From: Takakia lepidozioides | Taxonomy: Eukaryota > Plantae > Bryophyta | Assembly: GCA_030704615.1 (NCBI GenBank) | Contig: CM060731.1 | Span: 42,966,001-43,030,000 of the forward strand | Direction of reading: 5' to 3' | Length of the DNA stretch: 64,000 nt | Part shown: in pieces, positions 1 through 59,425 of the stretch | Numbering within the stretch: the first letter of the stretch is position 1 | Layout: every line of letters starts with the position of its first letter | Notes under the pieces: generated by a model | The model's database searches: none | What the model was told of the DNA's origin: nothing | The model's input: the letters and a program-made list of their open reading frames with translations, nothing else | Position numbers and translations under genes: made by a program

Positions 1-3042
<3,042 letters not shown>

Positions 3043-4280
3043 GAAAAGTCTTGTTTTTTAGAAAGCACTGTAGGTTGTGCTGGCGATTGTTAAAATCTGT
3101 GGAGGGGTGCTTCATCGCTCACACTGGGTGTTGGTGATGCCGAAGGAAGTAGTATATAGCTGTGGTTTTCGTCTCAGCTGTGGAGGATGGAAGCTATTTG
3201 ATGCTAGGTGGGATTCTTGGAAAGGCATCTTGAATTGATTTGCCTTTAGAGTTAGCAGCAGTTGGAGTTGTGGCTAAATTCATCTACCAAGGCTATGCTT
3301 TCATTTGAGGTTGAAAGTAGGTAGTTCTGATAGTAGTGGATTTGATAGGAGGTGAATATTGCAGGTGGGGTAGTTTCTACTTAGGGTTTGATGACAGGGA
3401 AAGTTGGTGTTGGCAGCAGTTTCTACTTTGGCTGCCCTTTCTTGTACGGCACACAGTGGGGTCAAAAGTAGGGAACGGTGATTATTTTTTCAGGTTTCTT
3501 CTCTTGAATGTAAAGGTCTCCCTTCAGTGATCATGGCCGATTGGTTACAATTTATCTGGTTTGTGGTGGTGAGGCTGATACATGTTCACCATTATGGTAC
3601 ATAGTGGGCTTCTGCACTCTGCTTCAACCTGCATGCCACAGATGTTCCTTGGAATGGAAATATATGAATGGTGAGAAGTGGAGACGATGATTGTGGAGAT
3701 GAAGTGGACAAATTCACGGTGATGGAGTTTCATACAGTGTCATGCAGTAGGAAGGTTCCATTAACCTTGTAGTTTCCAAGGAAATCAGTAACAGTTGAAG
3801 TACATGCTCCAATGACTCAATACATCCTCTAGTTTCCGCATTGTGAATCACAATATTTTAGTACTTCCTTTTAGTCAGTAGCCGGCCGATGCATTGGATA
3901 AGAGAGAATGGAAGGAAAAATCAGAAATTTCATAATACTTGGCACTTGCTTAGATAGTCATGGCCTTATAATTACAGCTACATTCTATCTGTCAGATAAA
4001 AGTACTTGCAGAAAAGATTTGAAGGAGAGAAGATGTATGCTCTTCCTTTATAAGGCAGACAACATTTATCCGAATGCTTGTGATGTACACCATCAAATTG
4101 GCCAACAGCAGGACATTCCCCGCAGTTCATTTAAAATAAGCCTGCAAAGACGAGCATTCTCTAGACAATGAATGAATGAATACATTTACACGGCTGAACT
4201 TCTCCGGTAATTTTACATAAATACACTACTGATCACCCAAATCCTACTTTGAGCAGCAAAATTGAATGAAACAAATGAAG

Positions 4281-7060: not shown

Positions 7061-10000
7061 AACTTGTGCTGTAATGTCCAGGGAAATTAAGTATATTGAG
7101 AGGTGACAACTCTAGTCCCCATTGTGGTTCAATCTCATAGATCCCCCTAAAGCTTATCCCTGAAATGCATGTCCTGTGCAAGCAACCCCATGCCGATTCC
7201 TTTGCTAACAAATGGAGTCACCATAAACATCAATACAAAAGATGTCATCCCATCCACATCATGACACATGGACAGACAAGGGTCTTCAGCAGCAGCTGCC
7301 GAGAGATGAAACACCCTGCAAAAAGTTGTTACTTTCTATTTCATGTGTCTTAAAGCATGAACCTGTCTGATATACTCAGATATGGTTCATGGGTAGATTA
7401 TATGTGATTGTCTATGTATAATCAGACCAGGACCTGGATCTGATGGCTCAAGGAAAAGATGGCATGCAGAACCTGAAAGTGCCAAGCTCTGCCCTGGGCA
7501 AGGATAGGTATATCTATCTCAGCAAAATCGTTCTCTACAGGTACAAATCATGAAACTACTTGTTCAATAATGTGAATCCCAGATTCCTTGCGATTTAGTT
7601 GTTTCTACGGATGTTCATCCACATCTGGGTTCAGACTAGATATGGGCATAAGAGAGGGAGACGTTTCTAGCACTTGCAGGCGGCAAGGGAAACCCTTGAA
7701 TTGCGTCATAAAGGCTGCTGCTGCCCATATGCGCTGTTCATCACTGCAACAATATAACCCAATGACTCCATGTCAGCTCCACACTCGTTTCAAAGCTGCT
7801 AGTTTTTTACTCAACCCCTCCAAGTGAAGAAGGCTATAAAGATGCTGTGATGTTGCCTTTAGTGGCCACCCATAGTCTAGGAGGTGACCTCCATTTTACC
7901 CCTCAGTTCTTGCAATTTGATCACATGAAAGTTTAAACTCTCACTCTATTGATAAGTGATTGAAAACTCAGAGGTGGTGGCTCTGTGTAGAAAATGCATA
8001 CAACTCCACCTCTTTGAGGTTCCTCCATCTAACAGGACCCTTCTGCTTTCCCTGGATGTGGGAAGGCTTGCTTCTGAGCAAAGATTACGACGACTTACCT
8101 TTTATGACATTCAATGATGGCACTACAGTTGTCCTCTTGGAAGTCAATCAGATCCCAGACAAGGGCTCCCCCGATAATGCCGTACAGTCCTGTGAGTGCT
8201 GCTTCTACCAATTCTGTAAAAACAGCTCCTGTAACTTTGATTGGGCCGGAATTGAGCACCCTGTTCCACAAGAATTATGAACAGACTGAGTAGAGTACTA
8301 GGCAAAGTCCATCACGGTTGACTGTGTAAATTTTTCAAGGTAGAATCTATCACCTGTAGCCGTTAGAAGTAACTGAGCATAGTGTCTATTCATCACATCA
8401 ATCATTAGGGACGTGACCAGCTTGTTTTGTTCCTATGACTGCAGGCTTTCAGAAGCTCAGGCCACCATGCTCTATCACATGCATGACAAACTTCACAGAG
8501 ACTTCACCAAATGTTGTTGATGCAATAGAAAGCATGAAACTTAAAACAATAAAGTTACTAAAATTTCACAACAATAGCTGTGTTGACTTTCTTCGTGGCA
8601 CTGCTATGCCATGATCAGATCATTAATCTAATGAGATAGACATTTTTTCCAAGGGTGCAATGCAGAAGGACAAGTTCAATTCCTGGTAATACCCTGTCAA
8701 GATTCTGTCTGAATTCCAATGTCTACATTTTCAATTAATTATAAAATGCTTACAAGGAAAGGCGGACAGAGGTGTATGCCAGCTTGCTCTGTCCTCGTGG
8801 CTTACTTGTAAGCATCTTATTAGTTTTCTATTAGACCTCCCATCTGACAAGTATTTGCGGTCGCCCCTCCTTAGTACACATGCTTGCCTCCTGCCTATCT
8901 CATTCCCCGTAACTCCCCACCTCTCTCTGTATCACCTGCATTTACAGATAGTTGCAACAATTACAAAATAATGTTTTGTGAATGTGAATTCAGGACAGAC
9001 TACCTTCAGCAACTAAGCATCGACAATGTGTGTCTAGCCCAATCTAGCATGAGGTATAATTAACAAGCCACGTCAACCCAGATCCACTGGATTTGGAAGG
9101 GGCAGACAGGCAACTGCGGACATTATAAAGTTCCATTTCATTTCATTTCTCTCTGATGCCCGCAACATGGAAATTTTAGTTGCACTCAGATCATGATAGG
9201 AATCGATGATGAGATGCAACTCCATCTTCCAGTTCCAAGCACATACAATTACATGAAATCTGCGTCTCCACTTATACCTCATCATCTAGGTTTATTACTT
9301 GAGCTCCATCCTTCAAAAGGAATATCTCAATACCTTCAATGCTACTCTAACACCTGTCTTCCCCAGTCCCGGTCTGTTTGTCAAATTTCAGAAAAACCCT
9401 CTACCACCATCTCATTATAGGAGAGAGAGCACCACAGGGGTCAAAATCTCTTAGACAACCTCCAGAACCACTTCAGGGGGCCACTAAAAGCAAAAACTGT
9501 TGCTAAGCAAATGTAGCTGTGTCCTTCACAATCAGACCTTTTTCACCATTAGCGCATTCATCCAACTGTGAGAAATTACTGGCAGCAGCCATCACTGATT
9601 CTCATGGCAGGCTTATTGACATGTTCTGACACAATTTCACTTTTGAGTCTCTATGTGTCTGCCTAATACTAAGGGCATTCGCTTTTACTCCATGAAAAGT
9701 GGTTATTTACCCCACCCCAACCATAAACAAAACAAACATGTCCTTGCCATGAAGGTACCACAAACCTATGAGACTCCCAGCCAAATCTGTCCGGAGGAAA
9801 GATCACACAAAAGATGGATCCAATCCAATATATGAACAGATAGCAAAGTGCATCGAGGTAGGGAGGATTCCGGCGCACACTTAATTCACAAACATAAACC
9901 AGAACACTGTAAACTTCGCAACAATTTCTTTTGGTTTCACAGTATCAACTCCACACGAAGACAAGGAGCGAGAGACGTATTCACAGAGCGTGGGGTGGAC

Positions 10001-14358: not shown

Positions 14359-15713
14359 CTACGAGACTGTGGTTGACTCCGTCCTATATACGTCTTTCGG
14401 CTCAGGCCAATTGAATGGCTTGCCCATGAACCGAAGTACTACATGGGCTAATGTGACTATCTCATTCTTGTTGTTGTCGTACAACTTTTGTAGCATTGAA
14501 TGCCAACAACCTTCCGTAAATTGGTCCTGGAACATACTTTGATCATAATGAGCGCCGTCATTTATTCGTACCACTATCTTCCCAACAGCAAAGGCCTCCG
14601 ACGTCATGTCCTGGGGGGGGGGGGGACATTCGCATTGAAAACCGATGCAATATCTTTTTCCACCCACCATCTTTTCGCGAGTTCCCGGTCCAGCTTGTCT
14701 TGGTTTTCAAACTGGTACGGCGAGGCTTTGCGTATGCCCAATGGGGTGGCTAAGCCCCAATCACACACCCCAATCTTGATCTCCTCGGTGTCATTTGGAA
14801 AATGCAACAAGATGTTGTCGGGGGACAAGTCGTTGTGCATGACACCGTTCTTGTGGACAACATCCATGATGCACATCAGTGCCCATGCAAGTTTACTGCG
14901 CACTTTTCGGAAATGAAGCAAGCGATCGCATTCCTGGAATTCTGCTTCCGTTCCCATTTGTTCTAAAATCACCTTGTTGTCCGAATCGTTGCCCAATTTT
15001 TTGTCAAGGTTCATCATGTCGCGTATTGTCCCCCCATTCCACCAGCGAGTGTAACCCTCTACCTCACGTGCATTCACAGCAAAATACGAGATAACACCCG
15101 GATGCTAGAACTTCACTGCCAAACACTCGTCGTTATGTTGTCTCAACTTTTTTTCTGGATTTTTGGACTTGGGTTTTTTTCCCGCTAGCTCCCAATGCTC
15201 CGGTATTCTAGAATCGCCAACAATCCTACAGTGACGGACCTTAGCATACCCTCCTTATTTGTAAGGGCCAATCTCTACCACCTTCGCACTAGAGTTCGGG
15301 TAATAAAGACCAGTTGTGCCTCCCTCGCCCGATGACCCCGCCTTCCAAGAGACAACCCTAGTCCGGCGATGTGAATTCTGACCTGCCGAGCAAGCCCAAT
15401 ACTCAACACGCCGCATTAACTCAGCTTCGGCGGAGAACACTCGACCCTTGGTTGTTCTACCTTTCCATGTCTTCATTAGCTGCCTCAAATTCCACGTGGC
15501 GTCTTTCGCCCTGCTTTGGATCCACCGATTAAACTTCGGCTTGTCCCTGTCCGCCATCCACGTAGCCCCCGCCAAAGCGTTTGTCATTTTCCTCTCCATA
15601 TTTTGCTGAAAAATCTGAAACCCCTCCCATCCATGCCTAACATAAGCACTCTCCAGCCTCATCATGTCTCTACCCTTGAAATAATCCACTACCACTTCTT
15701 TCACCCTATCCAA
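14359..15713 (-). pseudogene. Intronless protein kinase pseudogene (non-RD), divergent from the MULE transposase
   Basis: Reading through two stops gives GPYK*GGYAKV (Gly loop), ELAGKK, HPGVI, HNDLSPDNILL (catalytic loop) and DWGLA. A frameshift in the G-run at ~14612-14625 leads into SEAFAVGK. Confidence 0.8.
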
Positions 15714-16436
15714 GGCATCCGGTCCCGGGTAGTCTGGCTATCCCGCTCGTGGGCACGTTTTCTCTTCCTCCGCCCCCCAGGCGACCCCGCCCCAGAACTT
15801 GAATTCACAACCCCCGACATTGTATAAACCTTTGCCCACTACAAGGTCCAAAACCTCATAAAATGACAATGAACGTGTGTGGATGGTGTCTTCGTAGTTT
15901 TCTGCAAAAAAACAGGCCGCCGGAGATCCGGAAACGGCAAAATGGTGATACAATGATTGTACCGTGAACAAGTGTGTGGGACTGACCAATAGAAAATCGA
16001 CAAAACCTCTCCCCCCAAATAATCACATTTGTACCTCCCGTTGGCAGTGCCAAGCAACGAAGTCCGAAAGAACTACAGGATGCCAAGGAACCACACCACA
16101 AGAGGGGCAAAAGTGATCAGAAAAGGAGGGGGGAATGGTTTACATAGGCGCCCACCAGCGCCCACCAGCGCCCCCCCCCCCCCCCCCCCCAACAAAATGA
16201 CATTATGCTTGAAAAGGCGCGACTAGCCAGTCGCACCTCGCCACGCGCACCCACATGGGAGAGGTCAAGGGTTCAAAACCACCTCCCCCCCATCCCATTT
16301 GTTTCGTTTTTCTTGACCCGTGACACCTCGCCACGTGGCTGGCCGAGGCGCCGCTTCATGATTAAAATGAGGGAGTCATATTCCCAGCACGAGCACCGCA
16401 GTTCGATCTATTCTTGAAATTCTGCGAGGGCTTCAC

Positions 16437-18322
16437 ATGGAGGGACATCGCTCGGAGCTGGCCGGGCTGGACTACAGCAAGTTCGCAATTAAATCGGTTA
16501 CATGCCTTCCCGCAGACGTCGACGGTAATATCTTCTTTGAGTTCCCTCCTCGGACGGACTACTCGAGGGCGTCCGGAATGTTGACAGATATGGATAGAAA
16601 ACATGATGGTCATCCTTGGTGCGTCACCAAAACCACCAGCATGAAGATGCTCAATGGTGTGCGGGTGCGCTACGTTGTTTGTGTGGGCGCGTTGCGGTGT
16701 TTCTCCCCAACTTGCTTCCATTTTAAATCCAGAGGTCACAGGAACGAGACCGATTGGACAGGCACAGCTCATCAACCATTTCGAGCTCAGGAGAAGGTTC
16801 CAAACTTCACATTTAAGTGTGCGCATTGCAAAGAACCACCACACTGCATGTCTGTTTGTAATGCCAAGCAGTTCTATATGTTGCACCGTTTCCCTGACCT
16901 CACCCGAGCTTGCATACACGTTGGTTTACATTGTCACAAATTGGCGAGGGGGAACTCGCGGGAGGCTGCCCACAAGGCAGAGCAGCTCCTTCAGGAGGAG
17001 GTTAAGTTGAGACCAGGTGTCAAACCCAAATAGATACAGCTCCAAGCCGCCCATAAGATGACATTGGTCAGAATTATGTCGGAAGACGGCTCTGATAGAG
17101 TTCCTCTCGATGAGAAGGAAATGGAGGCATTGCTGGAGTCGGTGTCCCACGTATGTTCACCGAATGTCCGAAACCACATTGTCTCATGCAAACAAAAAAT
17201 TGGGCGTGGCTCGGATATGCACTCCATTCTGGAGGTGAAGCGACGATGTGGATATGACTACATTCATGGAAGTAGGTTTCCAGGACAATGGACTGAGGCA
17301 GATCGTTGTTTCGTATTCAAAATGTCCACGTGTGGACCTGGCAGCGGCGTCGAACTAGTCGACAGGATGACGAGTGGGGACTTGTCAAACAGTTGGGTCA
17401 TGTTCGACCATATCAAGCGAATTACAAATCACCAGTGGGTGACAATGGGTGCACATGTCTACGACACCCACTGCAGGATGCTAATGACAATTGTTATTTG
17501 TGAGATGAAAGGAGAGGACACACAATCGGAGATGCTTCTTTGGCAGGGAATAAACGAACAGATGGCCAAGGCGGGATTGCCCCCTCCCAATTTCTGTGGT
17601 TTCATGGCGGACAACGCACAAGCAAATTGGGCTGCCATCCGAAGGGTGTACGAGCAAGACCCCAATGTTCCCATGGAAGGCAAGGAGAGATCTTGTGGGT
17701 TCCATTTTCTGCAGAGCCTTTCGCAGTACACAACCAGGCTCGTGGCGCCAGATTTCAGAGAAGAGCACTGTTCCATGTGTCTTGCGTGGAAGTGCGCTCC
17801 CACCTTGGATGATGCAGAGACACAGTTTGCATGTATACGGGCTTGGTGGACATCGTCAGGTGCTGTAAGGAAATTAGACGAGGGAGCAATGGTCAATTGG
17901 CTAGCATGGTGGCATTATCGTTTCCTCCAGTTCGGCGACTATATGCGGGAGGTGAGTTGCACGAATTCGCGTCCCGTTGAATATTATTCTTGGCATTATT
18001 TGTAACTTGCTTGTAACCTCAACATGTGCTTGTGCAGGAAATGTGTCTCGACTCCGACACCGACATGCCCACGACAAACTTGGCCGAATCAGTGCATTCT
18101 TCCTGGCGTGCCTCCTCTACGACGCATCTGGTGGACATCCTCACTGTCACAACGAAGGACATTGTGAGGTCAATTATACAGCAATGTAGGTACAACGAGT
18201 TCTTGAAATGGAAACAGTGGGGTTTGGGGCCGGACAGGCAGGAAATGCTGATGCGGACTGCCTCCAGATCGAAGAATCCTCGGAAGTGGGCGGCGACTTG
18301 TCCACCTCATATCCATGTTTGA
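16437..18322 (+). mobile_element. Mutator-like (MULE) transposase pseudogene with N-terminal GCM/WRKY-type Zn region
   Basis: Single frame across TAG 17031 and intron 17952-18038. Motifs: DGHPW...C.G.L.C..P.C...CAHC...C...HVGLHCH, VMFDH, FMADNAQANWAAIRRVY, CGFHFLQS (CxxH) and TTNLAESVHS (third acidic residue). Confidence 0.78.
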
Positions 18323-18800
18323 AGCCCAAGTCCCGTTTTTAATTTATTTTTTGTTTTTATTTTCCTCCTATTTCTAAATTTTTCAGCTTTGGGGTACAAT
18401 AGAGTGAGGACGTGGTCGGAACAAATTTTAATCCCAACATGTATAAGATTGAATTAGCTCATTAAAACAATTGCTTATTACTAATTGGTAGCAATTTTTT
18501 ATGAAACTTCCTTATAAGCACTTTTCAACCCTTTGTTTACATTGAATAGACAATTTTTTTTTTTTTTGCTAATACTAAGTTTTGGGGAAGTTTATAGAAT
18601 TTTACGATATTTAATTGAGAGATTTTATAAGTCTTAATTACTCTTGTAAATTTGTTTGTCATTGAATAGTACCAAATTTGCTTACCCTAAATCCTAGTAT
18701 GTCATCTTTTTTTATTGTTTGAAGCTCATTAATTTTTTTTCCCCCATTGATTCACTTTATAATAAGATAAAGTGGTCTGGATTTTTAATTGATATTTCAG

Positions 18801-21800
18801 CAGGTTGCTGATCGACGGGTGCAACAAGCCTGGATAGAGGCTTTTGTACCATCAGGAGAGGATGAGAGTACGGGGATTGCACCAGGACCACCTCAGTTGT
18901 CTCCATTGGACACCACACCTATTGTGTGGCAGTATCCGAATAAAGGCATTTGTCTTCTGGACTTGTTTGGCGGGATCAGCACCGGATTGGCTGCTGTGTT
19001 ACAGACAGGTGTACGAGTTTGGCGTTACTTGTATGTAGAGAGGGATGAGACTGCACGACGCGTTTCACTTCGCCATGTTGCTCAGTTGGTGCAGCAGTAC
19101 CCTAAGTTGTTGCCGGTGTCTGCAGTTCGTGGATATCAGCGGGCCCCAACAAACATTCGGTTGCTGGGGGCGCAGGATTTGAAGCGGGTTGGCTCCATTG
19201 ATCTGGTAGTGGCAGGTTGGCCCTGCTAAGGGCATTCATCAGCCGGGCATGACAATGGATTGCGAAACTCGAGGTCGGGTCTGTTTTGAGAGATGGTGCG
19301 GGTTTTGCGCCACTTGCAGCTTCATCAAGCTGTATCTTCAGCATACATCTTGGAGAATGTGCCACTGATGGGCGATTCTCAGGCCAGGGTGACGGCCAGT
19401 ATGTATCAAGTCCGGTCGTGGTTTGGGTCAGCAGTGTTGCTAGATGCAGTTACAGTGGGATCACGGGCTCATCGTCCACGGCTATGGTGGACTAACTTGA
19501 TGTCACCCGCACTGCTCAAGCGTGCATTTGATGGGGTGTAGCGGCCAGCACACCTCACAGTGGATAGCATTTTGGACACAGGGAGGCAGTCTCAACGTGT
19601 GAGACACGATGACCGTTCGCCTTTGGCAGTGGTCAACAAGGTGGATCAACCACGAGCAGCATTACCTACACTGCTCAGCTTCCCAGGATCGCATGCTTTC
19701 CGGGATAGTGGACCTGGCCTCCTGTGGGATGTTCAGTTGCAGCAGTTAATGGACCTTAATGCTGACGAGCGTGAGCGGGCAATGGGTTTTACCACTAGTA
19801 CCACGGCGGTATCGTATCTTTCTGAGGCATCACGTCGTCAGGTGTTGGGGCAAGCAATGGATCTCAATTACTTGACCTGGATTATCAGCTTGGCTATGGC
19901 TGAGCAACGCAGAGTGCGGAGCATACTTCCCTCGCTGGTCTCTCTGCCTACCGAGACGGCACAGGCAGTGAGTGGGGGCAAGCATGTGAGGACCACGGGG
20001 GGCAGGCATCCATGGCACACGTGGGAGGTGCTCGAGGTTCAGAGGGAGTTGGCAGCCAAAGTGGCAGTGATGAATGAGGTTGGGGATTTTTCTCGGATTG
20101 AGGAAGTCCTTGAGGATGAGATGATGGGGCAAGATGAGGCCTTGTCATTGATTGAGTAGGTAGGGAGTACTGCTCAAGAGGTTGCAACATAGCAACCACT
20201 GGACGCGTCCTCTACCTCTAAGCCCACTGGACTTAAGGTTGCAGTTACGGAGGACAATTGGGAGCCTGACATTGGACCCATTGTCACCGGAGGAGAGAGA
20301 CGACGTATACGGCGGTTCCTGAGGGCTTACAGGAATTGCTTTGCCTTCAGTTTGAAGGACTTGGGAGCACTGAAGGGTCAAGAGATCCGTATTGAGTTGG
20401 CCACTGACACGTCAATCTTTCGGAGACCCTATAGATACAGTGACATGGAGAGGTCTTTGATTCAGATGAGGACTCAAGATCTCTGGGATGCAGGTTTGGT
20501 GGAGCTCTCTGGTGGAGAGTATGCTTCAGCCACAATGATGCCAGCCAAGAAGGATGTCTATGGCAATTGGACGGAGAGACGTATGTGCGGTGATTACCGG
20601 CCTGTAAATCATCAGACCAAGTCCGATGAGTGATGCCATGCCATGCAGACCATCTTTGATGCCATCGGGCATGCTAAGGTCTTTAGCACTTTGGATTTAC
20701 GATCCGGATATCACCAGTTGCCGATCAAGGAGGCGGACAAGCAGAAGACGACATTCTGGGGGATCAATGAGCACGACAAGGATTGCCTATATCAATGGCG
20801 GTTCTTACCATTTGGGCTTAAGAATGCTCCTGCAGAGTTTCAGAGAGTCATGGATAGGATTCTAGCAGGGGTGGACTTTGCTCGGTGCTACATAGATGAT
20901 ATCATCATCTTTAGTGCTACGGTGGAGGAGCATGAGAGACACCTTCAGGTGGTATTGGAGCCCTTGAGAGCGCACGGATTGAAGTTGCATCCGGAGAAGT
21001 GCAAGTTTTTCCACAACCAGATTGAGTATCTGGGTCACATGATATATCCTGGAGGATTGGGGGTACAACAGACTAAGGTAGAGGCCATTGCACAAATTCC
21101 ACGTCCCACGGATGTGAGCCGAGTTCGAGCTTTCATGGGGTTGGCAAACTATTATAGACGGTTTGTCAAGGGATTTAGTGCCATTGCAAAGGCTCTAACC
21201 AAGTTGACCAAGGTGGACTAGGAGTGGCAGTAGGAAGATGAGCAAGAACGAACTTTTCAAAAGCTCAAGGCGAGGTTGACTTCGGCGCCTATCCTGAGAT
21301 GAACTATCAGGGGGCGTCCCTTTCAGTTGCATACGGATTGGAGCATATTGGGGCTTGGAGCGGTGCTCACACAGGTGGATGATGAGGGAAGAGAGTTCGT
21401 AGTGGCTTATGCTAGCCGCTCGAACAACGCTGCAGAGGCTAAGTATAGCTCATATGAGGGAGAGTGCTTAGCTGCAGTGTGGGCCGTGACACACTTCAGG
21501 TGCTATCTATACGGCAATCTCTTCACCCTTGTCACGGATCACCAGAAGTCATGCCCATGGCTTTTGAGAACCTTGCCATTGCACAACTCCGTGATACGTT
21601 TAGGTATGCCACTATACGTGGTGGAGGATATCGTTCTGGGGTTCGGAGGTTTAGCCCTGGTGACTATGTTTATTTACAGCAGACTGCTCCTACAACCCTG
21701 GATGTGACTGCAGGGCTTGTTATTCTGAGGGTTCGAGAGGTGTTGCCCTCAGGGGTCCTGATTTTGGAGGGTCGGGATGACATGACTTAAAAGGACCATG

Positions 21801-22027
21801 TGAGTAATTGTGCGCCATGTCACCTTCCCAATGTCGATGGCAGAGTTGACCCAAACTTGGCAATGGTACCTGCAGGTTTGAGGTGCATGCTCTGTGGGTC
21901 TGCCAAAGGGGCAGCCACCATGCTGGTGTATGATCGATGCTCAAGAGGTTGGCACATGGGATGCTTGACACCACCACTTGAGAAGATTCCTGATGAAGAT
22001 TGGTTGTGTCCACACTGCTTGGGATAG
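18801..22027 (+). mobile_element. Decayed Ty3/Gypsy pol fragment: C5 DNA methyltransferase - RT - RNase H - (integrase core deleted) - SH3-like - PHD finger; no LTRs seen
   Basis: ORFs at 18789, 19293, 19560, 20352, 20643 and 21327 share one frame. DNMT motifs LDLFGG, AGWPC, ENV, HRPRLWWTN, ERERAMGF, LGQAMD; RT LDLRSGYHQ, LPFGLKNAP, YIDD (20889-20900); RNase H TDWS, VVAYASR, YSSYEGE, TDHQ; PHD CMLC...(Y)DRC..GWH..CL.PPL..IP..DWLCPHC. Confidence 0.92.
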
Positions 22028-22774
22028 TGGCAGTGGACATGACTAGAGGCAGCTAACAAGAAATGGAAGGCCAAGCTCATAGGAGTCAATACACGAGATC
22101 ACAGGCTCAAGTTTACAAGTTGCAAGACGGCGATTAACGATGGGGCAACTCTTGCACATGGCCTCTTGATCTATCGAGTCATTGAAAAAATAAATGTACA
22201 TAGCTTTGGAGTACATTGATATATTGGTTTGGAGAAATTATTTCGATTAAAAATGTCTAGAAGTTCCATAGGTTCTATACATTTTTTCACATTTTATTAA
22301 TGTTAATTCGGATTTTTCATGTGAGTATGATTTTTTTTTATTTCGGTATACCGTTTTGATTTTGAATTCCTTTTAGTTCGCCTTCGGGCCTTGTATTCAT
22401 GTGTTAGTATTCATAAATTTATATCCGTGGTTACTCTTTTGCAGGAGTCAATTTGGATTCGAGACCGACATTTTTTTTATTTACAAAACAAAGTATTTTA
22501 TCTAAGTTCGAGTCTTTATTTTTACAAGCTACCTATCTACGCGGAGGCATTTGCAAAAACATATCTTTGTGCGACGCACACCCAGTCTTCACAATGTCAG
22601 CCTTATGTGTAGATGTTATAGTTTCATGGCTAGGGTGTTTGTGGACTATATATAATGCATTTGTATTGGGAATAGCAGACTAATTGACAACATGACATGT
22701 AAATTACATTGTACTGGGTAATGATGTCTCATGGATACTTGTGCTAATTAGTATATATCATTTGCCTTTGATGT

Positions 22775-23374: not shown

Positions 23375-24380
23375 GTGTCATGGAACGGGATGATCGCAGG
23401 ATATGCAATGCAGGGGCACCGATGCAGTTTTCTTGAGTTTATTCTTGAGCAAATGATGCAGGAAGGGCGAGGATATGCACAACGGGGGTGTGGTATAGAG
23501 GCTTTGGAGACGTATGAGCAAATAATGCAGGAATGGGTGAAGCCGGACCGGGTTAGGTTCGTTTGTATTTGCAATGCGTGTGCGAGCCTGGCAGCCCTGG
23601 AGAAGGGTAAAGGGTCCATGGTGCCATTGTCAAATTTGGAATTGTACCCGCTGTCATTCTGAACAATACCCTCGTGGACATGTATGCCAAATGTGGCAGT
23701 ATTGAGGATACAAAGGGAGTGTTTGAGAATATGGCTGAACGAAATGTCGTGTCCTAGAGTATGATGATCGCTGGATATTCCCCAGCATGGATGCGGGATG
23801 GAGGCATTGGAGACCTATGAGCAAATGATGCGGGAAGGGGTAAAGGCATATCTGGTCACATTTGTTTGTATATGCAATGCGCGTGCGAGCCTGGCAGCCC
23901 TGAAAAAGGGCAAAGAGGTTCATGGTGACATCATCAGAGCTAGAATTGTACCCGACGTCATTCTGAACAATACCCTCGTGGACATGTATGCAAAATGTGG
24001 GTGCATCGAGGATGCGAAGGGAGTTTGCAACGGTATGCTGCGGGGTGCACAGCAAGGCCGTGGGAATGAGGCTTTGGAGACCTACAATCAAATGATGGCG
24101 GAAGGGGTGAAGCCCGATCACATCACGTTTGCATTTGCAGTGCATGTGCAAGCCTGGCAGCCCTGGAAAAGGGCAAAGAGGTCCATGGTGACATTGTCAG
24201 AGCTGGAATTGTACCCGATATCATTCTGAACAGTACTCTCGTGGACATGTATGCAAAATGTGGGTGCATCAAGGATGCAAAGGGAGTGTTCAACAGTATG
24301 GCTGAACGAGATGTAGTGTTGTGGAGTGCGATGATTGCAGGATCTGCACAGCAAGGGCGCGGGATGGAGGCTTTGGAGAC
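23375..24380 (+). pseudogene. PLS-class PPR pseudogene fragment (about 3 tandem P-L-S triplets)
   Basis: Repeated VSWN.MIAGYA..G, EALETYEQM..EGVKPD, ACASLAALEKGK and NTLVDMYAKCG.IEDAKGVF, with frameshifts and stops. Confidence 0.88.
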
Positions 24381-25819
24381 TTTTTCAACACATTTCAGCC
24401 TGTTTCCCCTGTTATCAGAGTCGTCCCTAAAATTTCCAGGTTGAATTTTGCAAGTTAGCTCGTTGGTGCAAAAATGTGAATGTCTGTTGGAAGCTCAAGT
24501 CAGCATAGGAACTTGTGTGATAAGTAGGGTTAGGGTGTTTGCTGGAACATAGAGGCAGAGATAGCTGAAGGAGTAGGGATAGAGAGTGGGTCCAGATTCA
24601 TCCAAGAGGGCCAGATTTCAAGCACAAGATTACTTATGATTCCATATGGATCAATAGCTACAAGAAACTTGCATGGGTAGATGGTCAACTGGATGCCGCA
24701 GTAACAGCGGCACAACTGATAAAATCAGGCATTGGTAATCAAGGCACCTTCTTCAACACATTTCACCCTGTTTTTCCCTCTTATCAGAATCGGCCCTAAA
24801 TTTCCATGTTGAATTCTGCAAGTTAGTTGGTTGAGTGAAGGTAGTTTGGAGTGACTTTGACATGATACTGCCATTGTGACAACAGGAAAGTATCAAAAAA
24901 CACGTAACAGAGACGAGGAGAAACTGTGGAATGAATACTTTTCTGACCCCAGTCAATGGTGGGACACCGAGGCAAAAAGGTGAACGCTTGTTAGATTACA
25001 AGAGAGTAGCAGATACAATTCAGTATAGAACTAGTGTAATAAGCTGAGTTGGGTGTTTCCTAGAACAAATCTAGGCTGTCATTATCAGCTGCAAAGGCAA
25101 GGATGTATGCATGAATTGTGTAGTGGCATGGATAGCTGAAGGAGCAGGGATAGAGTGTGGGTCCAGATTCATCCAAGAGGGCTGGACTTCAAGCTCCAGA
25201 TTACCTTGATTCCAGGTGGATTAGTAGCTATAAGAAACCTGCATGGATAGATGGTCAACTAAAGGCAGCAGCTGTAGTGGCACAATTGATAAAATCAGAC
25301 ACCTCAACCATGACCACAGCTTCTGAAATTAGAGGATCAAGAGAGGGAGTCCACAATGCCTATTCTGGCACTTCTGGGCATGTGAAGATACTTTGTGCGG
25401 TCGGCAGCCTGACAGAGAACCCTATTTTAAGTAATTCCGGACTTTTGGCTTAAATCCGGACGAAACTTAATATATAACATAATTAAAATTAATTCAGGTA
25501 ATAATAATAATATCGTGGAATATTGAGTCATTTAACTTGTGAAGTTGCACAATCCCATTCATGTAACATCGAATGGTAAGTCGAATGACGTACTTTGCAT
25601 CAGAAAATTATAAAGATAAGATCGATTGAATGAAGTTATTAATAAATTGATAGATGTATGACATAAACAGATGATCCAAGATGATAATATACAATGGAAT
25701 AAGGTTGGATTTCAATGAAACATGTGAATTATGTTTCAAAATATTTAGGGATCATTCCGAAAGGTTCATATTGTGGAAGAGTGTCATGTAGATTCAGCTA
25801 TAAAGTCATTGAACCAAGC

Positions 25820-26700: not shown

Positions 26701-27396
26701 AGGACAATGTAAGGATTGAAGGCCCCAGAAGTGTTGTCTTTAGAAGGTCCTAATAAAATAAACAGACCCAAGATAAAATTGACCTGAGATGACATGGAAT
26801 AACGGGTGGCAAAACGAGGTTCAGGATTGATTAGTGACGAAGAAAATTGAGAAGAATCTTAAGATAGTCCGAAAAGGTAGTAAAGGAAATGTAACTCTGT
26901 ACTTGAAGCCAGACTTACAGAAAGCTACTGACAAGTAATGGGAGAAGATTCACAAGCAGTAAACCGCGAGAAAGCTTGTCCATTGAAGCAACAACTTTTC
27001 ACAAATTGCCACGCGGTCTATACTCAGGACATTTTTTAGACCAATCATATTGAGCCCAACAATACGACCATGTGGACCGAGAATGAAGGAGATGGGCGAA
27101 TCTGTTGAGGAGAAGACACTTTGGTGAGAACCAGAGAACCAAAAGAAATGGGTGTAATGTGAGAGAGGAACTGCAAAGAGAATGAAGTAGTGACATCAGG
27201 AAAACTAGGAACTTCGGATGATCACTCGAGGTTCCTGAAACGTTACAGAGATGAGGTCCGGAAAAAAGCTGGTGGCTGGCAAAGAAGGTAGATTAATATT
27301 TGAACATGTGAAGAGAAACAAATGGAGAGTGGAGGTAAAACATTAGTTTTATTCTTGAAAACATGCCGAGGAGTGAACCTCCACAATATGTCCTTG

Positions 27397-30300
27397 TCAA
27401 CCTTGTTCTCCGCCCGAGGTTGCATTGTCTTCATTGTCTGACTGTTGATTGGCCTCATCCAAATTTGCTCGTGCTTTCTCCGCCTCCACCGCGGTAATTT
27501 TCTTAGAGCTATTACATGTCGTGTTTTTTCTGGCGGGCATTGTCCAAACGACAAAGTTAATGTGAATCCACTGAGGGGGATCATCTGGATTGAACTCCCA
27601 AACTTTGGACCAACAATCTCTGTACCTGTCCAATCGGAAGGGCTACCTCCTTTCTTGGGTCTCCACCATTCGACGTGAACCTTCTTAAAATTCCTGGATC
27701 CTCTGTCGCGGACCACATCCGATATTGCCATCCCCATCCAAACTGGAAACGTCACAGTATCTACTGGTTGAACCAAGACGAAGAATCCGTTCTCAACGTC
27801 CTAGAACGGATTTAGAGGCTGCTTCGGTCTATCACACCGGGGGCCACAATACGGCTCTATGACTGCATCTTCTTCCGACAGATCATCCTCTATATGTGTA
27901 TGGATTCCGGCTCTGTGGTGGTTGACAGCCCACTTGGTTGAGGGCCAAAAACCCTCTTTAAGCGCGATTGAATGTCGTGATTCTCTAGAAATGGGAAGAT
28001 CAAGTTATGCAAGGATTGCTTCCCAGTATTGATCATACTGTATCATGATGTCACGATAATGATCGTCAAGCAACATCCCCTTCTTCCAGAACTCCCTGTA
28101 TTTTTTAATTCTAGTTTTGATAAAAGACTGTTTATCGGATGAGCAATCTCTCACACCCCAAATTGGTGTTTTTTTTACTGCCCTGGGTTGTACTGCTACA
28201 GGCAACTTTGGAGATCCATCGGGATTCGACTTCCACATCTTCACCGCATCTTTTTTGGGGAGCCACTCAGAATCAGTAGCAAACTTCTTAAACTTCATGA
28301 CAGGCCAACCATCTTCATCTACATAGAATTGAAATACACGCATTTATGTTTGCCCAACTAAAGCCTCTTTTCCATAGAGAATGCAACCGTCCACATACGC
28401 CTTGAAATCTGGCACCTCTTGAATGATTTGAGGAATAAATTACAGATCTTGAGAGATCATAAAAAACCTCATAAGATCGGAGAGAACGTAGGTACTGTTT
28501 TGCTTCAGCTTCTTCGATAAATAACTGAAGAATCCGTCGATGTCCTCATGGGTATGGCCAACCATGAGAAATCCCATCTGAATCTCCTCAAACACTCCTC
28601 TTGCAGTTAGGAGCGACAAAAAAGCCAGCATCCACCTGTTTTTGTTTTCCTCACGCAGTTGTCCAACTGTAGGTAGAGTCTTCGCGGGAGTGGGACTTTT
28701 CCTTTTTTCTTCTCCTTATCGCCGAGAAGGTTTTAGGACGTCGAGACACCTCGATTTACCCTTCATGAGAGATTCGAAAAAGGAATTATGAGGTGGGTGG
28801 TCAAAGATGTTACGACTTTCGCGGCAAGAGGGCTTCTCTAGTTGGCGGAGGCATCTTGCTAGAGAGCCAATCGTGAAGTTCGGGTCTCCCGGCCAGAAGT
28901 CCAAAGAGTATTGTCCGTAGGCTCCGTCCCCATGGCTGTGGGTGACCATGCCGGTTAGCGAGATTGGAAGTTGACCTAAGCCGGAGACCATCTTGTTAGT
29001 CGTCTGCAACCTTGGAATAGCTGGTTTTCGATGATCCGTCTTGTCATGAATGATGCAAAGGAACTCGGACGACATCATAGTTGACTCATTCCTCCAGCTG
29101 TGATAGAGTCTCCTGCAAGACTTCTGAAGCCTGAGGTGCTTATCAAGTGCTTTCTTGTACAAGGCCTGCTCATCGCTACGTTTGACCAACTTCTTGATTA
29201 GGTCTTTGAGCATCTCACAGTCTGTGTATTTGGCAAACGTGCTACAATTTTTTCTAACCTCGACATTGGGAAAAATCCGTTATCTGATTCTGCTAACGGC
29301 TGCTTGGGAGATAGGCTTCAACCCACATATTTTATTCGCCTGCAAGATAGACAGGTGGAAATGAACCTCGCGCGGTCGCCCGAGCTTTAATAGTGAGAGG
29401 TCTGATACATTGCGTGGAAGCAAAACAGGGAAGGTCCCAAAAAATATAGAATTCGGAAAGTGGTAAAAAGAATAAGAACTGACCTCATTACACTCCTCAC
29501 GAATATTTTCAGTTCGGTTCAGGTGGCAGAACTCGAAGAGTATCTCTCCGTCCGTTTCCAATACAGCGGGTCTTATGAGGCATGAGATCGGAATTTCCGT
29601 TTATAATCGAAATTAAGTTTTCTTCAGCTTGACGAGTTTGTGGACAGGGCCGTTTCACTCCGGAATTCACGTGCAACGATGTAACCACACCCTCTCTGCT
29701 TAATTTTTTGTATTCCATGTAGGTTGAACGACCGATTCCGTGAATTGTCCACCAAGCTATCTCACACACATCAACGCCCTCAATGGTTATGTAGGCCGTT
29801 GTCGAAACCCCGTCGATTCGATGAAGTCTTTTGGGAACATCAAAACCGAGCTCTCTCCGTTCGTCGTAAGATGATCCCCAATAAGTGGTCCGGATAGCGA
29901 GTGTTTTTCTCCAGTCGAAATATTGGCAACACTGTAAATTGCAACATTGTTTGCTGCTGACTTCTCGAACTGCCTACAGAGAGAGACGAGTATTTATCTT
30001 TTTGGAATCGTCTTTTTTCGGATTTTTTTTTGGTATGTTGAAATGCCGGTATGCTGCTTTTTTCACACCTTTCTCGTTGTGACCAATATCTGTTTGTTCC
30101 CGGCTATTGATGAACCTATGAAGCTCATGTGACAATGTCCTGCCACTATCAATCAACCGACTCTGGGTCAATGGCCAGTTCACGAGACACATGAGATTGG
30201 TCGAACCGCCATTTAAAATCCTTGTAACGAGCACCCCGACGTGATGTTCTCCAACTTTCTCACAAAGTATCACCTCGTCAGGATGACATGCTTGAATTCT

Positions 30301-30785
30301 GCCCTCGTACAAAGCACTTTGTTCATCTCCAAGGAGAATACACAATTTATTTCTCCAACTGTCTCTACCCATAGCAGCATCGTTATTCGGAGACGGCCTT
30401 GACATGTCAAATTCATTTGTTCATTGAATTTTGGATGGTAATCAGCCGCAGATGTCAATTCGACCTCTGAGAACCGAGGAACCTCATTGTTGGTGTTGGT
30501 GTCAGTTCCAGTATCTTGTTGAATTTGCACCACATCCCAAACGACAAGTGTTCCAATTGCTTCTCCCAAAGAGTCCGCATCCATGTGCGGATATGGCAAC
30601 GACACAGAAGAATGTGCCGGATCGCAAGACACTATAACAACAGATATTGTGGACCCGTTTAGCTGTCGTCCATGGCAACTTCCGCAACCAGTCACGTTGA
30701 GACATTCTGCTGTTGCGACGATAGAGTTCGAGCTCTGAAGTGTGAGGAAAACTTGTTGACCAGTTTGGAACAACGACATTTCCAC
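27397..30785 (-). pseudogene. DDD transposase pseudogene (Sola-like, DUF7869-type core) with two N-terminal TNP1/En-Spm-like domains
   Basis: CIIHDKTDH, LYLQLDNC..ENKN.WMLAFLSLL and GFLMVGHTHEDIDGFFS; intron 29483-29340; N-terminal CHGRQL...LPYP...LGEAIGTLVVWD; several stops and frameshifts. Superfamily assignment is from motif recall only. Confidence 0.75.
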
Positions 30786-33289
30786 GAACCTCGCGCGATC
30801 GCGCGTGTATCCTACAGTAGAGATTATGGCGATTAATGATTCGGCACTATATCGATGGACAGTAAGAAAGAGTGAAACAATAAGTTACTGAAGTTTGTTT
30901 AGAAAAACTGAGGATGAAGATGAAAAGGAACCTCTCGCGATTGCCCGCGTTTAGGGTTATAATGATTGGAAATTGAAAATAGAACTCGGAGTCTTGGATT
31001 ATGTACTAGAATGTACAACGTAGGTCTCTATTGGTCGAAACAGAAATTTGTAGAAAATTAAAGGATCTGCTAAAGCTACGACCCGAATGCACAACATTGT
31101 CTACGACTCCATAAAAGAAATAGAACCATATCGACGGGCGTTCGCGCGTGGTTCAGATGGATGAAATGAAGGATGGATGATTAATGGTAGACGAGTTTCG
31201 GATGACAAGTAAGAAAATGGATGAATAAATGAAAACATGAATGAACGAAACAACTGTAGTGCGAGTGATCATTCGAAGTACATAAAACGGTCGGGTGTGT
31301 ATATAAGATCTTTGCAGACAGTGGATGGGAACAGAGGAGCAAATAGACAAAAGAGAAACCCAGATGAAGTGGAGAGGCTCTCAATATTGACAGGAGTACA
31401 AAGGGAAGAATGAACGTAAAACAGACACTCATGAAGATCAGCGAGCCAGAGCAACTGAGAGGGAAAAAATGGCATGCTTGCACAGAGCAGGCTCTTATAC
31501 GGATTGTCAAACAGTATGAGGTCGACGTGTTCACATTACAGAGGTGCGTTTGGAGTGTCATGGATCGACAAATTGTCGCCCTAGATATGCTCTTTCGTGT
31601 AATCTAGTGGCTATTATGTGTCCTCCAAAGCATAAATGCAAGTAGGAGTCTGAAATCCACCGAACATTAATGGGTCCATAAGTTATTGCATCCAATGCGA
31701 ATAACTAACCGATTCGAGATCTGGAATCTGACATCCAAAGCACCAAAGAAGCCTGAAATCCAATGTTGAATTAATGATACAAGAGAAGGAATAGTCGGCG
31801 ACGAAAGTGGCCGCCTCTTAAGGCCATTGTGATGAGCCGACGGCCATCTATGGCAAGGTGACATTAAGTAGCCGCAATGAACGTGGGGCCGTAGATGAGG
31901 TGTAGGTAGAGAAAATGTGAGACCGATAAAATCCCAGATGCACGTCTCGACACCTCATTATTGAACCTATGAATAATATTTTATCATTGGATGAAATAAG
32001 AGCATTCGCGGATGAAAAAGAGGTATACTGGATGAGATGACTGCCCTAGGGGATGATTCAACTACCCCCATGGATGAGCGCCGTCACAAGAACCCGCAAT
32101 AATTCCATGGTATTCACTTTATGAAGGCGTTGGATTGCCGTGCAGTAATGCTCTGGTCAAACTAGTGGAGTCCATTCATTACTGATAGTCATGTCGCATC
32201 ATTGATTGTACCTGCATAAATTTAGGGGTCCTCAGCGAACCGTTGATAAACATCCCGCCTTTCATTCATCCATGCATCGAGGCCACAAACCGTCGGATGC
32301 GACATAATGCCGACGGTTGAGATCACAGGTGGTAAGGCATATAAGGAGGAGTGACCAAAAGGAGTCTCCTTTTGCATTCATTTGATACACGCGGAAGCCC
32401 TGTTCAATTTTGGACTCAATGAAGAGGTGCGAGAGAGAGCGACTGAGCGAGAGAGGCAGAGAGGTGGAGATCGAGGAAGCGAGAGAGCGAGAGATCGAGG
32501 GAGCGTGAGTTGGAGCGAGTGTGGGTTTGAGCAATTCACCGTGTGCGGGGGAGTGTGACAGAGTGAAAGGAGGGCAAAACAAAAGAGTAGGCTATCCCGA
32601 AAGCTGTTGTGCGCACCCGAGCGAGAGAGCTCATCCAGCCTTGCAAGGAGGATCCTTGCCTGAAATGGCATCAAGCAGGTAAAAAAATTTCCCGTCTTCT
32701 TCATGCATGCAATGAAGGATTCTTCCGTGGGCTGCAGAGATTGCATGAACGTAGAAGTTGCATGCTTGATTGATTGTTTGCTTGTTTGAGCGAATGATTG
32801 CTTGTTTTGATTATTTTGATTAGTTGTTTTGATTTTTGGATTGGTTCCAGGGTTAAAGAGGTAGGATGGTCGATAGAAGGATTGGGAATTGTGGAAGATT
32901 TCGGGATATGTACGCTTTCCTTGAGGAACGACTCCAGATTCGAGACATGAGAAATTCCGATTTCATAGGGCTCGTAGGTACAGCTGGCAACTGTTTAGGT
33001 TTTGCAGCCTATGGTGTAGGCCTCAGTATAGGTACCATGACACAGTCCATTCACGCGTGAACTCATTTTACCATGTACAGTTCTGGATACCGAACTGTGT
33101 TTTTGGTTCGATTCGGTTATGCACATTATTTCCATGATCTGCATTACGTGCCTCTCGAAATAGGGATTTCTAGTGATTTCGTAAGCCGTAGAGAAACCTC
33201 GCGCGATCGCCCGTGTTTATTTCAATGATAGTATTGCGAAACATGGTTTAGTTAGGACTTGGAGCGAGGCCAGTAAGCACTTTCAGCAA

Positions 33290-59054: not shown

Positions 59055-59361
59055 GAGAACGCGCCCCTGGGGCGCATTATGGCTCCTAGTGAGTCACTAG
59101 GGCGAGGCCGGTAGGCAGAGACCTAGGACGAACTAGGTGCCATAATGCGCCCTAGGGGGCGGGTTCCCTGGCTAAAGGAATTTTGGGGGGCAGATTCTGC
59201 GAGGCCCTGATTGGCTGCAGGCCATAATGAGCCAATAAAAGTCAAACTGCCGATTAGGAACGCAGAATGCGCCAGCAACGTGGAGCGACAACCTAATTTG
59301 CCTCCAACCTAAAGGCAGAATCTGCCCCCAAAATCCTTTACGGCGCCAGGAAGAGTGTTCT
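59055..59361. mobile_element. MITE-like element with nested inverted repeats directly upstream of the P450
   Basis: Outer GAGAAC...GTTCTC; inner pairs gggcgcattatggc.cctagt / actagg.gccataatgcgccc and aaagga..ttttgggggg cagattctgc / gcagaatctgcccccaaaatccttt. Confidence 0.55.
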
Positions 59362-59425
59362 CATTTTCTGGATCGGTACTCCAGTTCACGGGACTCCGAC
59401 GATCTTGAGAGGGATAGTAGAAAAT

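What the first reader, a model, noticed from the sequence alone, without database searches (positions are those of the whole stretch)
18801..22027. Gypsy retrotransposon encoding its own cytosine methyltransferase (writer) and a PHD finger (reader)
Seen: a C5-MTase domain with motifs I (LDLFGG), IV (PC 19221-19226), VI (ENV 19353-19361), VIII, IX and X lies in the same frame as RT and RNase H. A C4HC3 PHD finger (one Cys>Tyr) ends the polyprotein. Stops at 19227, 19287, 19539, 20157 and 20190 each revert to Gln or Trp by a single transition, so the ancestor was one DNMT-RT-RH-INT-PHD ORF. Known: DNMT-carrying retrotransposons were reported in dinoflagellates and charophyte algae (de Mendoza et al. 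2018), and PHD fingers read H3 tails. Inference: this lineage persisted into a land plant and may pre-methylate its cDNA or target chromatin, echoing the ADD+MTase pairing of DNMT3.
Basis: partly seen in the sequence, partly recalled or inferred. Interest (0 to 1): 0.85.

Follow-up and report, generated by a model that had tools for sequence, protein, structure and literature searches.

The report
Bryophyte retrotransposon carrying its own methyltransferase
This is a dead, cut-down copy of a jumping-gene family of mosses and liverworts that encodes its own DNA cytosine-methyltransferase domain, placed just before a conserved stop codon that ribosomes likely read through only now and then, so the element would pack far more methyltransferase than copying enzyme; we found such elements described in print only for algae.

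Summary
The domains are real: C5-methyltransferase (DNMT3-like), RT, RNase H and PHD all pass Pfam cut-offs. The copy is a fossil. It is 5'-truncated, has lost about 1.3 kb including the integrase core, and carries the PHD in another frame. Its relatives are abundant in liverworts and peat mosses, in the order Gag-protease-DNMT-RT-RH-INT-PHD. They belong to the lineage of algal KnitGypsy-Dnmt3 and share its A-coding-B-A-B end repeats.

The stop at 20190 is a family feature: 46 of 49 distinct relatives have it and none has a sense codon. Its context (TAG-CAA-CCA) is the tobacco-mosaic-virus readthrough signal. So ORF1 is Gag-protease-DNMT, and RT-RH-INT-PHD is likely made by readthrough. The PHD is the integrase's tail rather than an ADD-like partner of the DNMT.

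Relatives also show TG..CA ends, 4-bp target duplications and a likely self-primer. Methyltransferase activity is not shown for any member of this lineage. Verdict: new variant of a known kind.

The parts
18798..22170 (+). Whole surviving fragment of the retrotransposon (no Gag, protease, integrase core or terminal repeats)
   Evidence: Contig depth steps up at about 18798 and down at about 22170, with loose ends at 18798; no A or B repeat hit in the window
18798..18944 (+). Remnant of the protease-DNMT linker
   Evidence: tblastn to P0003, P0002 and P0010 starts at 18795
18945..19904 (+). DNMT3-like C5 cytosine methyltransferase domain, broken by three stops (19227, 19287, 19539)
   Evidence: Pfam PF00145 above cut-off; 60-71% identical to the ten best hits; relative's model matches DNMT3B/3A best
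19905..20189 (+). C-terminal tail of ORF1; one copy-specific stop at 20157
   Evidence: Family contigs differ from this copy at 20157 in all four runs
20190..20198 (+). Conserved in-frame stop ending ORF1, context TAG-CAA-CCA (candidate readthrough site)
   Evidence: No alternative letter listed at 20190-20192 in four runs, 6 rows hidden; homologous TAR-CAA-CY in 46 of 49 distinct relatives, 0 sense
20203..20306 (+). Predicted extended stem-loop 3' of the stop (weak support)
   Evidence: z -2.44 in the window; z -1.9, -0.7, -0.36 in three relatives; 46 of 50 related copies pair the same arms against 111 of 441 control windows, copies not independent
20298..21080 (+). Reverse transcriptase (YIDD), with an indel patch and stop near 20631-20650
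   Evidence: PF00078 109.9 bits
21237..21545 (+). RNase H, cut at its 3' end; stops at 21219, 21231 and 21300 in or just before it
   Evidence: PF17919, PF17917
21545..21551 (+). Junction of an internal deletion of about 1.3 kb that removed the integrase zinc finger and core and shifted the frame
21551..21883 (+). Integrase C-terminal region, one stop at 21788
   Evidence: tblastn 43-45% to P0030, P0035, P0036; 'CT' block in relatives
21884..22027 (+). PHD finger ending ORF2, third Cys replaced by Tyr in this copy; stop 22025-22027
   Evidence: PF00628 above cut-off; that Cys is intact in 21 of 22 related loci, 1 frameshifted
22028..22170 (+). 3' non-coding remnant, ending before the polypurine tract and B repeat
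   Evidence: 42-nt match at 22129-22170 to the same region of six related loci

Best explanation
The region is a decayed fragment of a high-copy bryophyte Gypsy retrotransposon of the KnitGypsy-Dnmt3 lineage, whose ORF1 (Gag-protease-DNMT) ends at a conserved stop that is likely read through at low frequency to make RT-RNase H-integrase-PHD, so the DNMT would be made and packaged at Gag level and would likely methylate the new cDNA before or at insertion. Shown by sequence: domain order, conserved stop and its context, A-coding-B-A-B repeats, TG..CA ends, 4-bp target duplications, and equal constraint on DNMT and RT. Inferred: readthrough; self-primed reverse transcription from an 11-nt complement about 30 nt after the TATA box; an LTR equal to B+A, with integrase inserting an end-joined intermediate opened at the palindromic B|A junction; the PHD steering integrase by binding unmodified H3 tails; and methylation of cDNA. 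This copy itself is dead.
For: Domains. Family order: 14 of 80 loci hold Gag, protease, DNMT, RT, INT and PHD on one strand; 51 of 59 link DNMT to RT. Stop: 46 of 49 distinct linkers have it, none has a sense codon, whereas ordinary Gln columns in the same copies show stops in 1 of 33 to 9 of 34. The window's own family keeps it. Linkers of the two distant families differ by a multiple of three (393 against 345 nt). CAR-YYA after UAG is the TMV signal (PMC2754532, PMC3159437 passages). Marchantia P0003 and P0013, Calypogeia P0002 and environmental P0005 and P0150 end 94-100 residues after motif X. In the IQ-TREE tree none of the 17 rows of the clade that holds the land-plant rows (95/99) runs into RT, against 11 of 17 other type-A rows. 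Constraint: window against 9 copies, DNMT pN 0.22 / pS 0.75, RT 0.19 / 0.77. Catalytic motifs: PC in 34 of 35 and ENV in 33 of 35 full DNMT domains. DNMT3 affinity: 29 of 29 PDB sequence hits are DNMT3; the fold's best matches are DNMT3B (Z 29.0, rmsd 2.5, 267 aligned) and DNMT3A (Z 27.6). Lineage: Klebsormidium GAQ93235 and Closterium proteins share the protease-DNMT order and fall on the same side of the tree, 100/99. Ends.
Against: No readthrough product, RNA-level or enzyme test exists. Sphagnum-type copies have CAA-CCC (5 of 6 letters of the TMV signal) and an ATG three codons after the stop in 45 of 48, which allows re-initiation there. Gene models P0010 and P0028 join DNMT to RT by skipping the linker, and P0006 and P0012 have shortened linkers (not inspected), so splicing is not excluded. 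The stem is weak: two of four folds are no better than shuffles, and the region is not among the top synonymous-conservation windows. The stop was read in DNA for only two families; for the other rows it is inferred from where proteins end. No CpG-loss signature: element 0.55 against whole window 0.62 and host exons 0.40-0.67. The Klebsormidium DNMT did not methylate yeast DNA. M.MpeI scores Z 26.1, close behind DNMT3A, and the trees had no host DNMT3 row. End structure comes from Sphagnum-type relatives, not from this copy.
Confidence: 0.6

Rival explanations
1. Same element and same two-ORF layout, but ORF2 is made by splicing, re-initiation or an internal promoter instead of readthrough. 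The DNMT would still be made at Gag level.
For: ATG three codons after the stop in 45 of 48 Sphagnum-type copies; TAG after a T-rich run resembles a 3' splice site in those copies; gene models skip the linker; Tca2's gag-pol stop gave no readthrough in yeast (PMC2194720 passages).
Against: The window's family has no ATG there and no pyrimidine run before the stop; the frame is kept across two distant families; one possibly-RNA contig crosses the site unspliced (X11, RNA status is a guess).
Confidence: 0.2
2. The DNMT is kept for something other than cDNA methylation: binding DNA or RNA inside the particle, methylating the target site or other copies in trans, or damping the element for the host's benefit.
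For: No yeast activity for KnitGypsy-Dnmt3; no CpG depletion; the authors themselves list these options.
Against: Catalytic Cys, ENV and RxR-region residues are nearly invariant over 44 diverse domains; DIRS-borne DNMT3s do methylate CG de novo, and they show no CpG depletion either.
Confidence: 0.15
3. One reading: one continuous polyprotein in which PHD and DNMT act as a reader-writer pair like ADD and MTase in DNMT3.
For: Single-ORF forms exist in more distant relatives, e.g. P0286 (Gag-PR-DNMT-RT-RH-INT-PHD, 2,300 aa), and chlorophyte-type elements put DNMT next to INT-PHD. A readthrough product would hold both domains before cleavage.
Against: Conserved stop in the land-plant branch; PHD lies about 850 codons from the DNMT, after INT, in intact relatives; several single-ORF relatives have no PHD hit (P0287, P0288, P0446).
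Confidence: 0.04
4. Chance juxtaposition of a host DNMT pseudogene with an unrelated Gypsy remnant.
For: This copy has no Gag, protease or end repeats.
Against: DNMT-RT linkage in 51 of 59 loci; a single contig of another organism spans 18854-21545 (X7); no introns.
Confidence: 0.01

Closest known systems
KnitGypsy-Dnmt3 of Klebsormidium nitens (de Mendoza et al. 2018, PMC5890265; read parts 1, 2, 4 of the text, sections 9 and 10, passages of the review file; figures not visible)
   Same: Gypsy domains with a DNMT3-like domain; intronless; DIRS-like A-coding-B-A-B repeats; Klebsormidium GAQ93235 has protease then DNMT and groups with these elements.
   Different: Land-plant hosts. A stop separates DNMT from RT, whereas the authors state that DNMT shares the ORF with RT and RNase H. 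'PHD' does not occur in that paper's text, though it might be in Fig. 4c, which I could not see.
SymbioDIRS-Dnmt3 of Symbiodinium (same paper)
   Same: Retrotransposon-borne DNMT3; split repeats; the only such enzymes shown to methylate CG de novo.
   Different: Tyrosine-recombinase elements, independent capture; these relatives have a DDE integrase (PF00665) and 4-bp target duplications.
Tj1 / Tf1 self-priming Gypsy elements of fission yeasts and plant Tcn1 (PMC4600332, PMC6317226; passages)
   Same: In-frame stop needed between ORF1 and ORF2 (Tj1); self-priming from a complement inside the 5' repeat.
   Different: Their stop follows Gag, with protease in ORF2; here it follows Gag-protease-DNMT. 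They have ordinary paired LTRs. Phylogenetic closeness was not tested.
TMV-type (type I) stop-codon readthrough, UAG-CAR-YYA (PMC2754532, PMC3159437; passages)
   Same: Exact match in the window, 5 of 6 letters in most relatives.
   Different: Function not measured here.
Chromoviruses and PHD-fused retrotransposons (bioRxiv 2021.11.30.470311 passages)
   Same: Histone-reader module at the integrase C-terminus; PHD fusions to TEs are common.
   Different: PHD without a visible aromatic cage; nearest solved PHDs are CHD4, KDM5B, ATXR5, KDM5A, PHF21A, UHRF1, which I recall as readers of unmodified H3 tails.

Membership tests
C5 cytosine methyltransferase (PF00145) | Score above curated cut-off; motifs I, IV, VI, VIII, X in canonical order | tested here: met
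DNMT3 family | Closest solved sequence and fold are DNMT3 | tested here: met
   29 of 29 PDB hits; Z 29.0 DNMT3B, 27.6 DNMT3A, 26.1 M.MpeI, on a relative's domain
DNMT3 family | Groups with host DNMT3 in a tree with DNMT1, CMT, DRM outgroups | not tested
   No host DNMT3 sequences were returned by my searches
DNMT3 family | De novo methyltransferase activity | not testable with these tools
   Inconclusive in yeast for the Klebsormidium member
Ty3/Gypsy retrotransposon | Order Gag-PR-RT-RH-INT with DDE integrase | tested here: met
   In relatives; the window copy lacks Gag, PR and INT core
Ty3/Gypsy retrotransposon | Two full LTRs flanking the coding region | tested here: not met
   Relatives have A-coding-B-A-B or A-coding-B
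Ty3/Gypsy retrotransposon | TG..CA termini and target-site duplication | tested here: met
   Left end TG in 17 of 19 loci; right end CA in 21 of 22; 4-bp duplication exact in 4 and one mismatch in 2 of 6 distinct insertions with both ends
KnitGypsy-Dnmt3 lineage | Gypsy domains plus DNMT3-like domain | tested here: met
KnitGypsy-Dnmt3 lineage | DIRS-like split repeats | tested here: met
   In Sphagnum-type relatives; not testable on the window's own family
KnitGypsy-Dnmt3 lineage | Same clade as the Klebsormidium DNMT | tested here: met
   Type-A side 100/99, rooted on chlorophyte-type rows only
KnitGypsy-Dnmt3 lineage | DNMT in the same ORF as RT | tested here: not met
   Conserved stop; this is the variant feature
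DIRS / Ngaro tyrosine-recombinase elements | Tyrosine recombinase, no target duplication | tested here: not met
   DDE integrase and 4-bp duplications
TMV-type readthrough site | UAG-CAR-YYA in frame with a downstream ORF | tested here: met
   Window 20190-20198; relatives mostly CAA-CCC
TMV-type readthrough site | Measured readthrough | not testable with these tools
   Needs reporter or ribosome profiling
PHD finger (PF00628) | C4HC3 ligands, score above cut-off | tested here: met
   one ligand lost in this copy, intact in relatives

The most novel reading that the evidence does not exclude
An ancient green-lineage retrotransposon clade that treats a DNA methyltransferase as a structural particle component. 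In its land-plant branch the DNMT is translated with Gag ahead of a leaky stop, so each particle holds many copies and methylates the cDNA. The self-primed cDNA is end-joined and inserted by a DDE integrase that cuts an internal att-like palindrome, guided by a PHD finger. New copies would arrive pre-methylated, and thousands of copies could feed methylation into moss and liverwort genomes independently of the host's DNMT3.
Probability: 0.25. Interest if true: 0.9.

Novelty: new variant of a known kind. Interest (0 to 1): 0.63.

Why it matters
A published review states that DNA-methylase transposons are absent from land plants such as tracheophytes and builds a hypothesis on that loss (PMC6338049). 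These elements show that the lineage survives in liverworts and mosses, including the model Marchantia polymorpha, where a 1,278-aa Gag-protease-DNMT protein is annotated as hypothetical (Mp4g09160). That makes the question left open in 2018, what a retrotransposon gains from its own DNMT, testable with genetics. The stop placement gives a specific prediction: DNMT at Gag stoichiometry. It also warns that DNMT gene counts in bryophyte genomes can include transposon copies.

Tried and rejected
No whole genome is held for this window, so the host family's own end repeats could not be read. Sequencing-run search: no RNA holder listed. Viral contigs gave no related element with P0003 or P0022; the alignment query gave only distant DNMT-like matches at 26-33% identity. 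The genome-contig scan did not run, for lack of a conserved stretch. A first window-versus-loci dN/dS for DNMT was out of register and was redone with codon alignment. CpG/CHG depletion gave no self-methylation signal. Synonymous-site conservation did not single out the stem. No long direct repeats bound the fragment in the window. A symmetric two-LTR-circle model predicts some copies with B upstream of the 5' A; none of the 19 left ends is preceded by B (forms list), so that simple model is incomplete. Among named hits there is no Physcomitrium, hornwort, fern, lycophyte or seed-plant name (52 rows, 120 of 154 listed); most hits are unnamed, so this is not absence. The ESM Atlas look-up added nothing beyond 'DNA_methylase, Streptophyta'. 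Literature searches for a land-plant report or for the repeat mechanism found none (REXdb paper has no 'PHD' or 'Marchantia'; Sarre 2025 supplement text has no hit). The library lacks most subscription papers and Repbase, figures are not held, and bioRxiv supplements (the 2026 DAM preprint, which says 'streptophytes (Gypsy-DNMT3)') were not seen.
Full report
Observation. Frame 1 from 18801 reads methyltransferase, linker, RT, RNase H. Read with X at stops, it passes Pfam cut-offs for DNA_methylase, RVT_1 and both RNase H models. The PHD passes too, but in another frame, 21548-22027. There are nine stops in the first frame and one in the second before the final stop. Laying contigs from four runs shows a repeated family from about 18798 to 22170: summed depth in run X1 is 0.5-1.2 million inside against 1,900-6,900 in the nearest flanks, which is no copy number. 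Other copies continue upstream of 18798 and across 21545-21547. The missing piece is about 1.3 kb. Most listed differences have A or T in this copy against G or C in the family (175 of 372 in X1), as expected for an old methylated copy.

Host. A neighbouring BTB gene is closest to Sphagnum (76%), then unnamed records, Marchantia, Physcomitrium and Diphasiastrum (62-68%). I read this as a bryophyte, likely an early-branching moss.

Relatives. The DNMT region found 52 longer proteins; the ten best are 60-71% identical and include Marchantia polymorpha and Calypogeia fissa, with Sphagnum fallax further down. A second search added M. paleacea, Riccia sorocarpa and three more Sphagnum species. A metagenome scan confirmed 211 stretches and returned the best 80; L056 is 84-89% identical to named Sphagnum proteins, so I call them Sphagnum-type. 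Their order is Gag, protease, DNMT, RT, RH, INT, C-terminal block, PHD. Fourteen hold all six tested domains, and 51 of 59 with room link DNMT to RT. Chance juxtaposition is excluded.

The stop at 20190. Translating the DNMT-RT linker showed a stop at one position in every in-frame copy. Of 57 loci with enough sequence, 44 have it at the exact offset and 10 have it shifted by small indels; 2 have unrelated sequence there and 1 a disrupted site. After removing near-duplicates, 46 of 49 have TAR-CAA-CY and none has a sense codon. Ordinary Gln columns of the same copies decay to stops in only 1 of 33 to 9 of 34. In the window's own family, 20157 differs in all four runs while nothing is listed at 20190-20192 (6 rows hidden). 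The window context TAG-CAA-CCA fits UAG-CAR-YYA, the TMV signal, which gave 6-10% readthrough in stable Arabidopsis lines (PMC2754532 passages; PMC3159437 passages). Annotated Marchantia and Calypogeia proteins end at the matching distance. A stem 3' of the stop is predicted with the same arms in both families, but support is weak. Against readthrough: an ATG three codons downstream in 45 of 48 Sphagnum-type copies, and gene models that skip the linker. Tj1 is a precedent for a required in-frame stop in a Gypsy element (PMC4600332 passages); Tca2 is a caution (PMC2194720 passages).

The methyltransferase. Of 35 single-frame domains, 34 keep PC and 33 keep ENV. Between the window and nine colinear copies the DNMT is as constrained as RT: pN 0.22 / pS 0.75 against 0.19 / 0.77. 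All 29 PDB sequence hits are DNMT3A, B or C. A model of the stop-free domain of L032 (pLDDT 95) matches DNMT3B best, then DNMT3A and M.MpeI. Activity is unproven. De Mendoza et al. saw none for the Klebsormidium enzyme in yeast and call it inconclusive, and I found no CpG-depletion signature.

Lineage. A full HMMER search gave 152 representatives at E up to 1e-30. Of 343 proteins examined, 76 have DNMT before RT or after protease (type A), 81 have it between RH and INT (type B), 171 are too short to class and 15 have no DNMT hit. Of 20 representatives looked up, the named type-A ones are Klebsormidium nitens and Closterium, and the named type-B ones are Scenedesmus and Cymbomonas. In a 50-row IQ-TREE tree (rows hand-picked; bootstrap not fully settled; rooted on type B; no host DNMT3) A and B separate at 100/99 and eight rows with the window and all named bryophyte sequences form a 100/100 clade. 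That clade sits inside a 17-row clade (95/99) in which no row continues into RT, whereas 11 of the other 17 type-A rows do. The RT tree also separates A from B, with weak support on the B side. The stop therefore looks like a single gain on the branch leading to the land-plant elements; this is inferred from protein ends for most rows.

Ends. Full-length relatives have A-coding-B-A-B repeats, A about 337 nt and B about 115 nt, the layout stated for KnitGypsy-Dnmt3. Left ends begin TG in 17 of 19, and right ends finish CA in 21 of 22. Six distinct insertions with both ends give four exact and two one-mismatch 4-bp duplications. A purine tract precedes the first B. The internal B|A junction is a palindrome in the least decayed copies, and the A|B junction joins A's CA end to the bases that follow the purine tract. 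The 11 nt after the 5' A have a 9-11 of 11 complement at positions 155-166 of A, about 30 nt after a TATA box, in 12 of 19 copies, as in self-priming Tf1, Tj1 and Tcn1 elements. I infer an LTR of B+A and insertion of an end-joined intermediate opened at B|A. The absence of copies with B upstream of the 5' A is unexplained by a symmetric circle. None of this can be read on the window's copy.

PHD. It ends ORF2 after the integrase in both types. It has Gly two residues before the His, where H3K4me3 readers have a cage Trp (recalled), and its nearest solved relatives are CHD4, KDM5B, ATXR5, KDM5A, PHF21A and UHRF1. The likely role is integration targeting through unmodified H3 tails. The ADD analogy holds at most for that specificity.

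Known or new. Gypsy-DNMT3 is known from Klebsormidium. A 2019 review says such transposons are absent from land plants such as tracheophytes. Later papers say only 'streptophytes' (PMC12344493 passages; 2026 preprint passages). My searches found no report for bryophytes, for the stop or for the PHD, within the library's limits. Earlier notes of this scan saw the family in a moss and its split repeats; my readthrough query returned no note on this family. Verdict: a new variant of a known kind. The identity is secure (about 0.9), the readthrough is likely (about 0.7) and cDNA methylation is plausible but untested. Interest 0.63.

Noticed in passing
window 16371-18294 (+) and 14607-15737 (-): A transposase-like frame (D..D..C-H pattern that I recall as Mutator-like; no Pfam hit) lies back to back with a decayed protein-kinase frame (PF00069, 33.4 bits). 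The transposase end is high-copy and is cut at 18294. Possibly a DNA transposon carrying a kinase.
   Followed up: partly
window 27246-30884 (-) and 50914-52843 (+): Two similar decayed copies of another element; one frame has a weak DUF7869 hit below cut-off.
   Followed up: no
window 4892-7111 (-): Host BTB/POZ gene; best hits Sphagnum 76%, Marchantia 63%, Physcomitrium and Diphasiastrum 62%, pointing to a bryophyte, likely an early-branching moss.
   Followed up: yes
window 2200-2781, 23400-24400, 59297-61438 (+): Papain-like cysteine protease with granulin-type tail, decayed PPR repeats, and a two-exon cytochrome P450 (labels recalled from the translations; not searched).
   Followed up: no
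proteins P0030, P0035, P0348, P0420 and others: A large sister group (81 of 343 proteins examined) carries the DNMT between RNase H and integrase; the two named ones are chlorophytes, Scenedesmus and Cymbomonas. The DNMT has therefore occupied two positions within one PHD-bearing Gypsy clade.
   Followed up: partly
L014, L017, L020, L030: Copies of form A-coding-B with target duplications: either insertions of one-LTR circles or products of B-B recombination.
   Followed up: partly
protein P0049: 1,417-aa protein with RT, a C5 methyltransferase and a PF05869 hit (recalled as Dam adenine methylase) in one chain.
   Followed up: no
proteins P0412, P0467, P0469, P0471: Very long proteins (up to 4,799 aa) with a related DNMT but no hit to my Gypsy domain queries; context unknown.
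   Followed up: no
window 43780-44658: Nested long inverted repeats (up to 179 nt, 83-92%), MITE-like.
   Followed up: no
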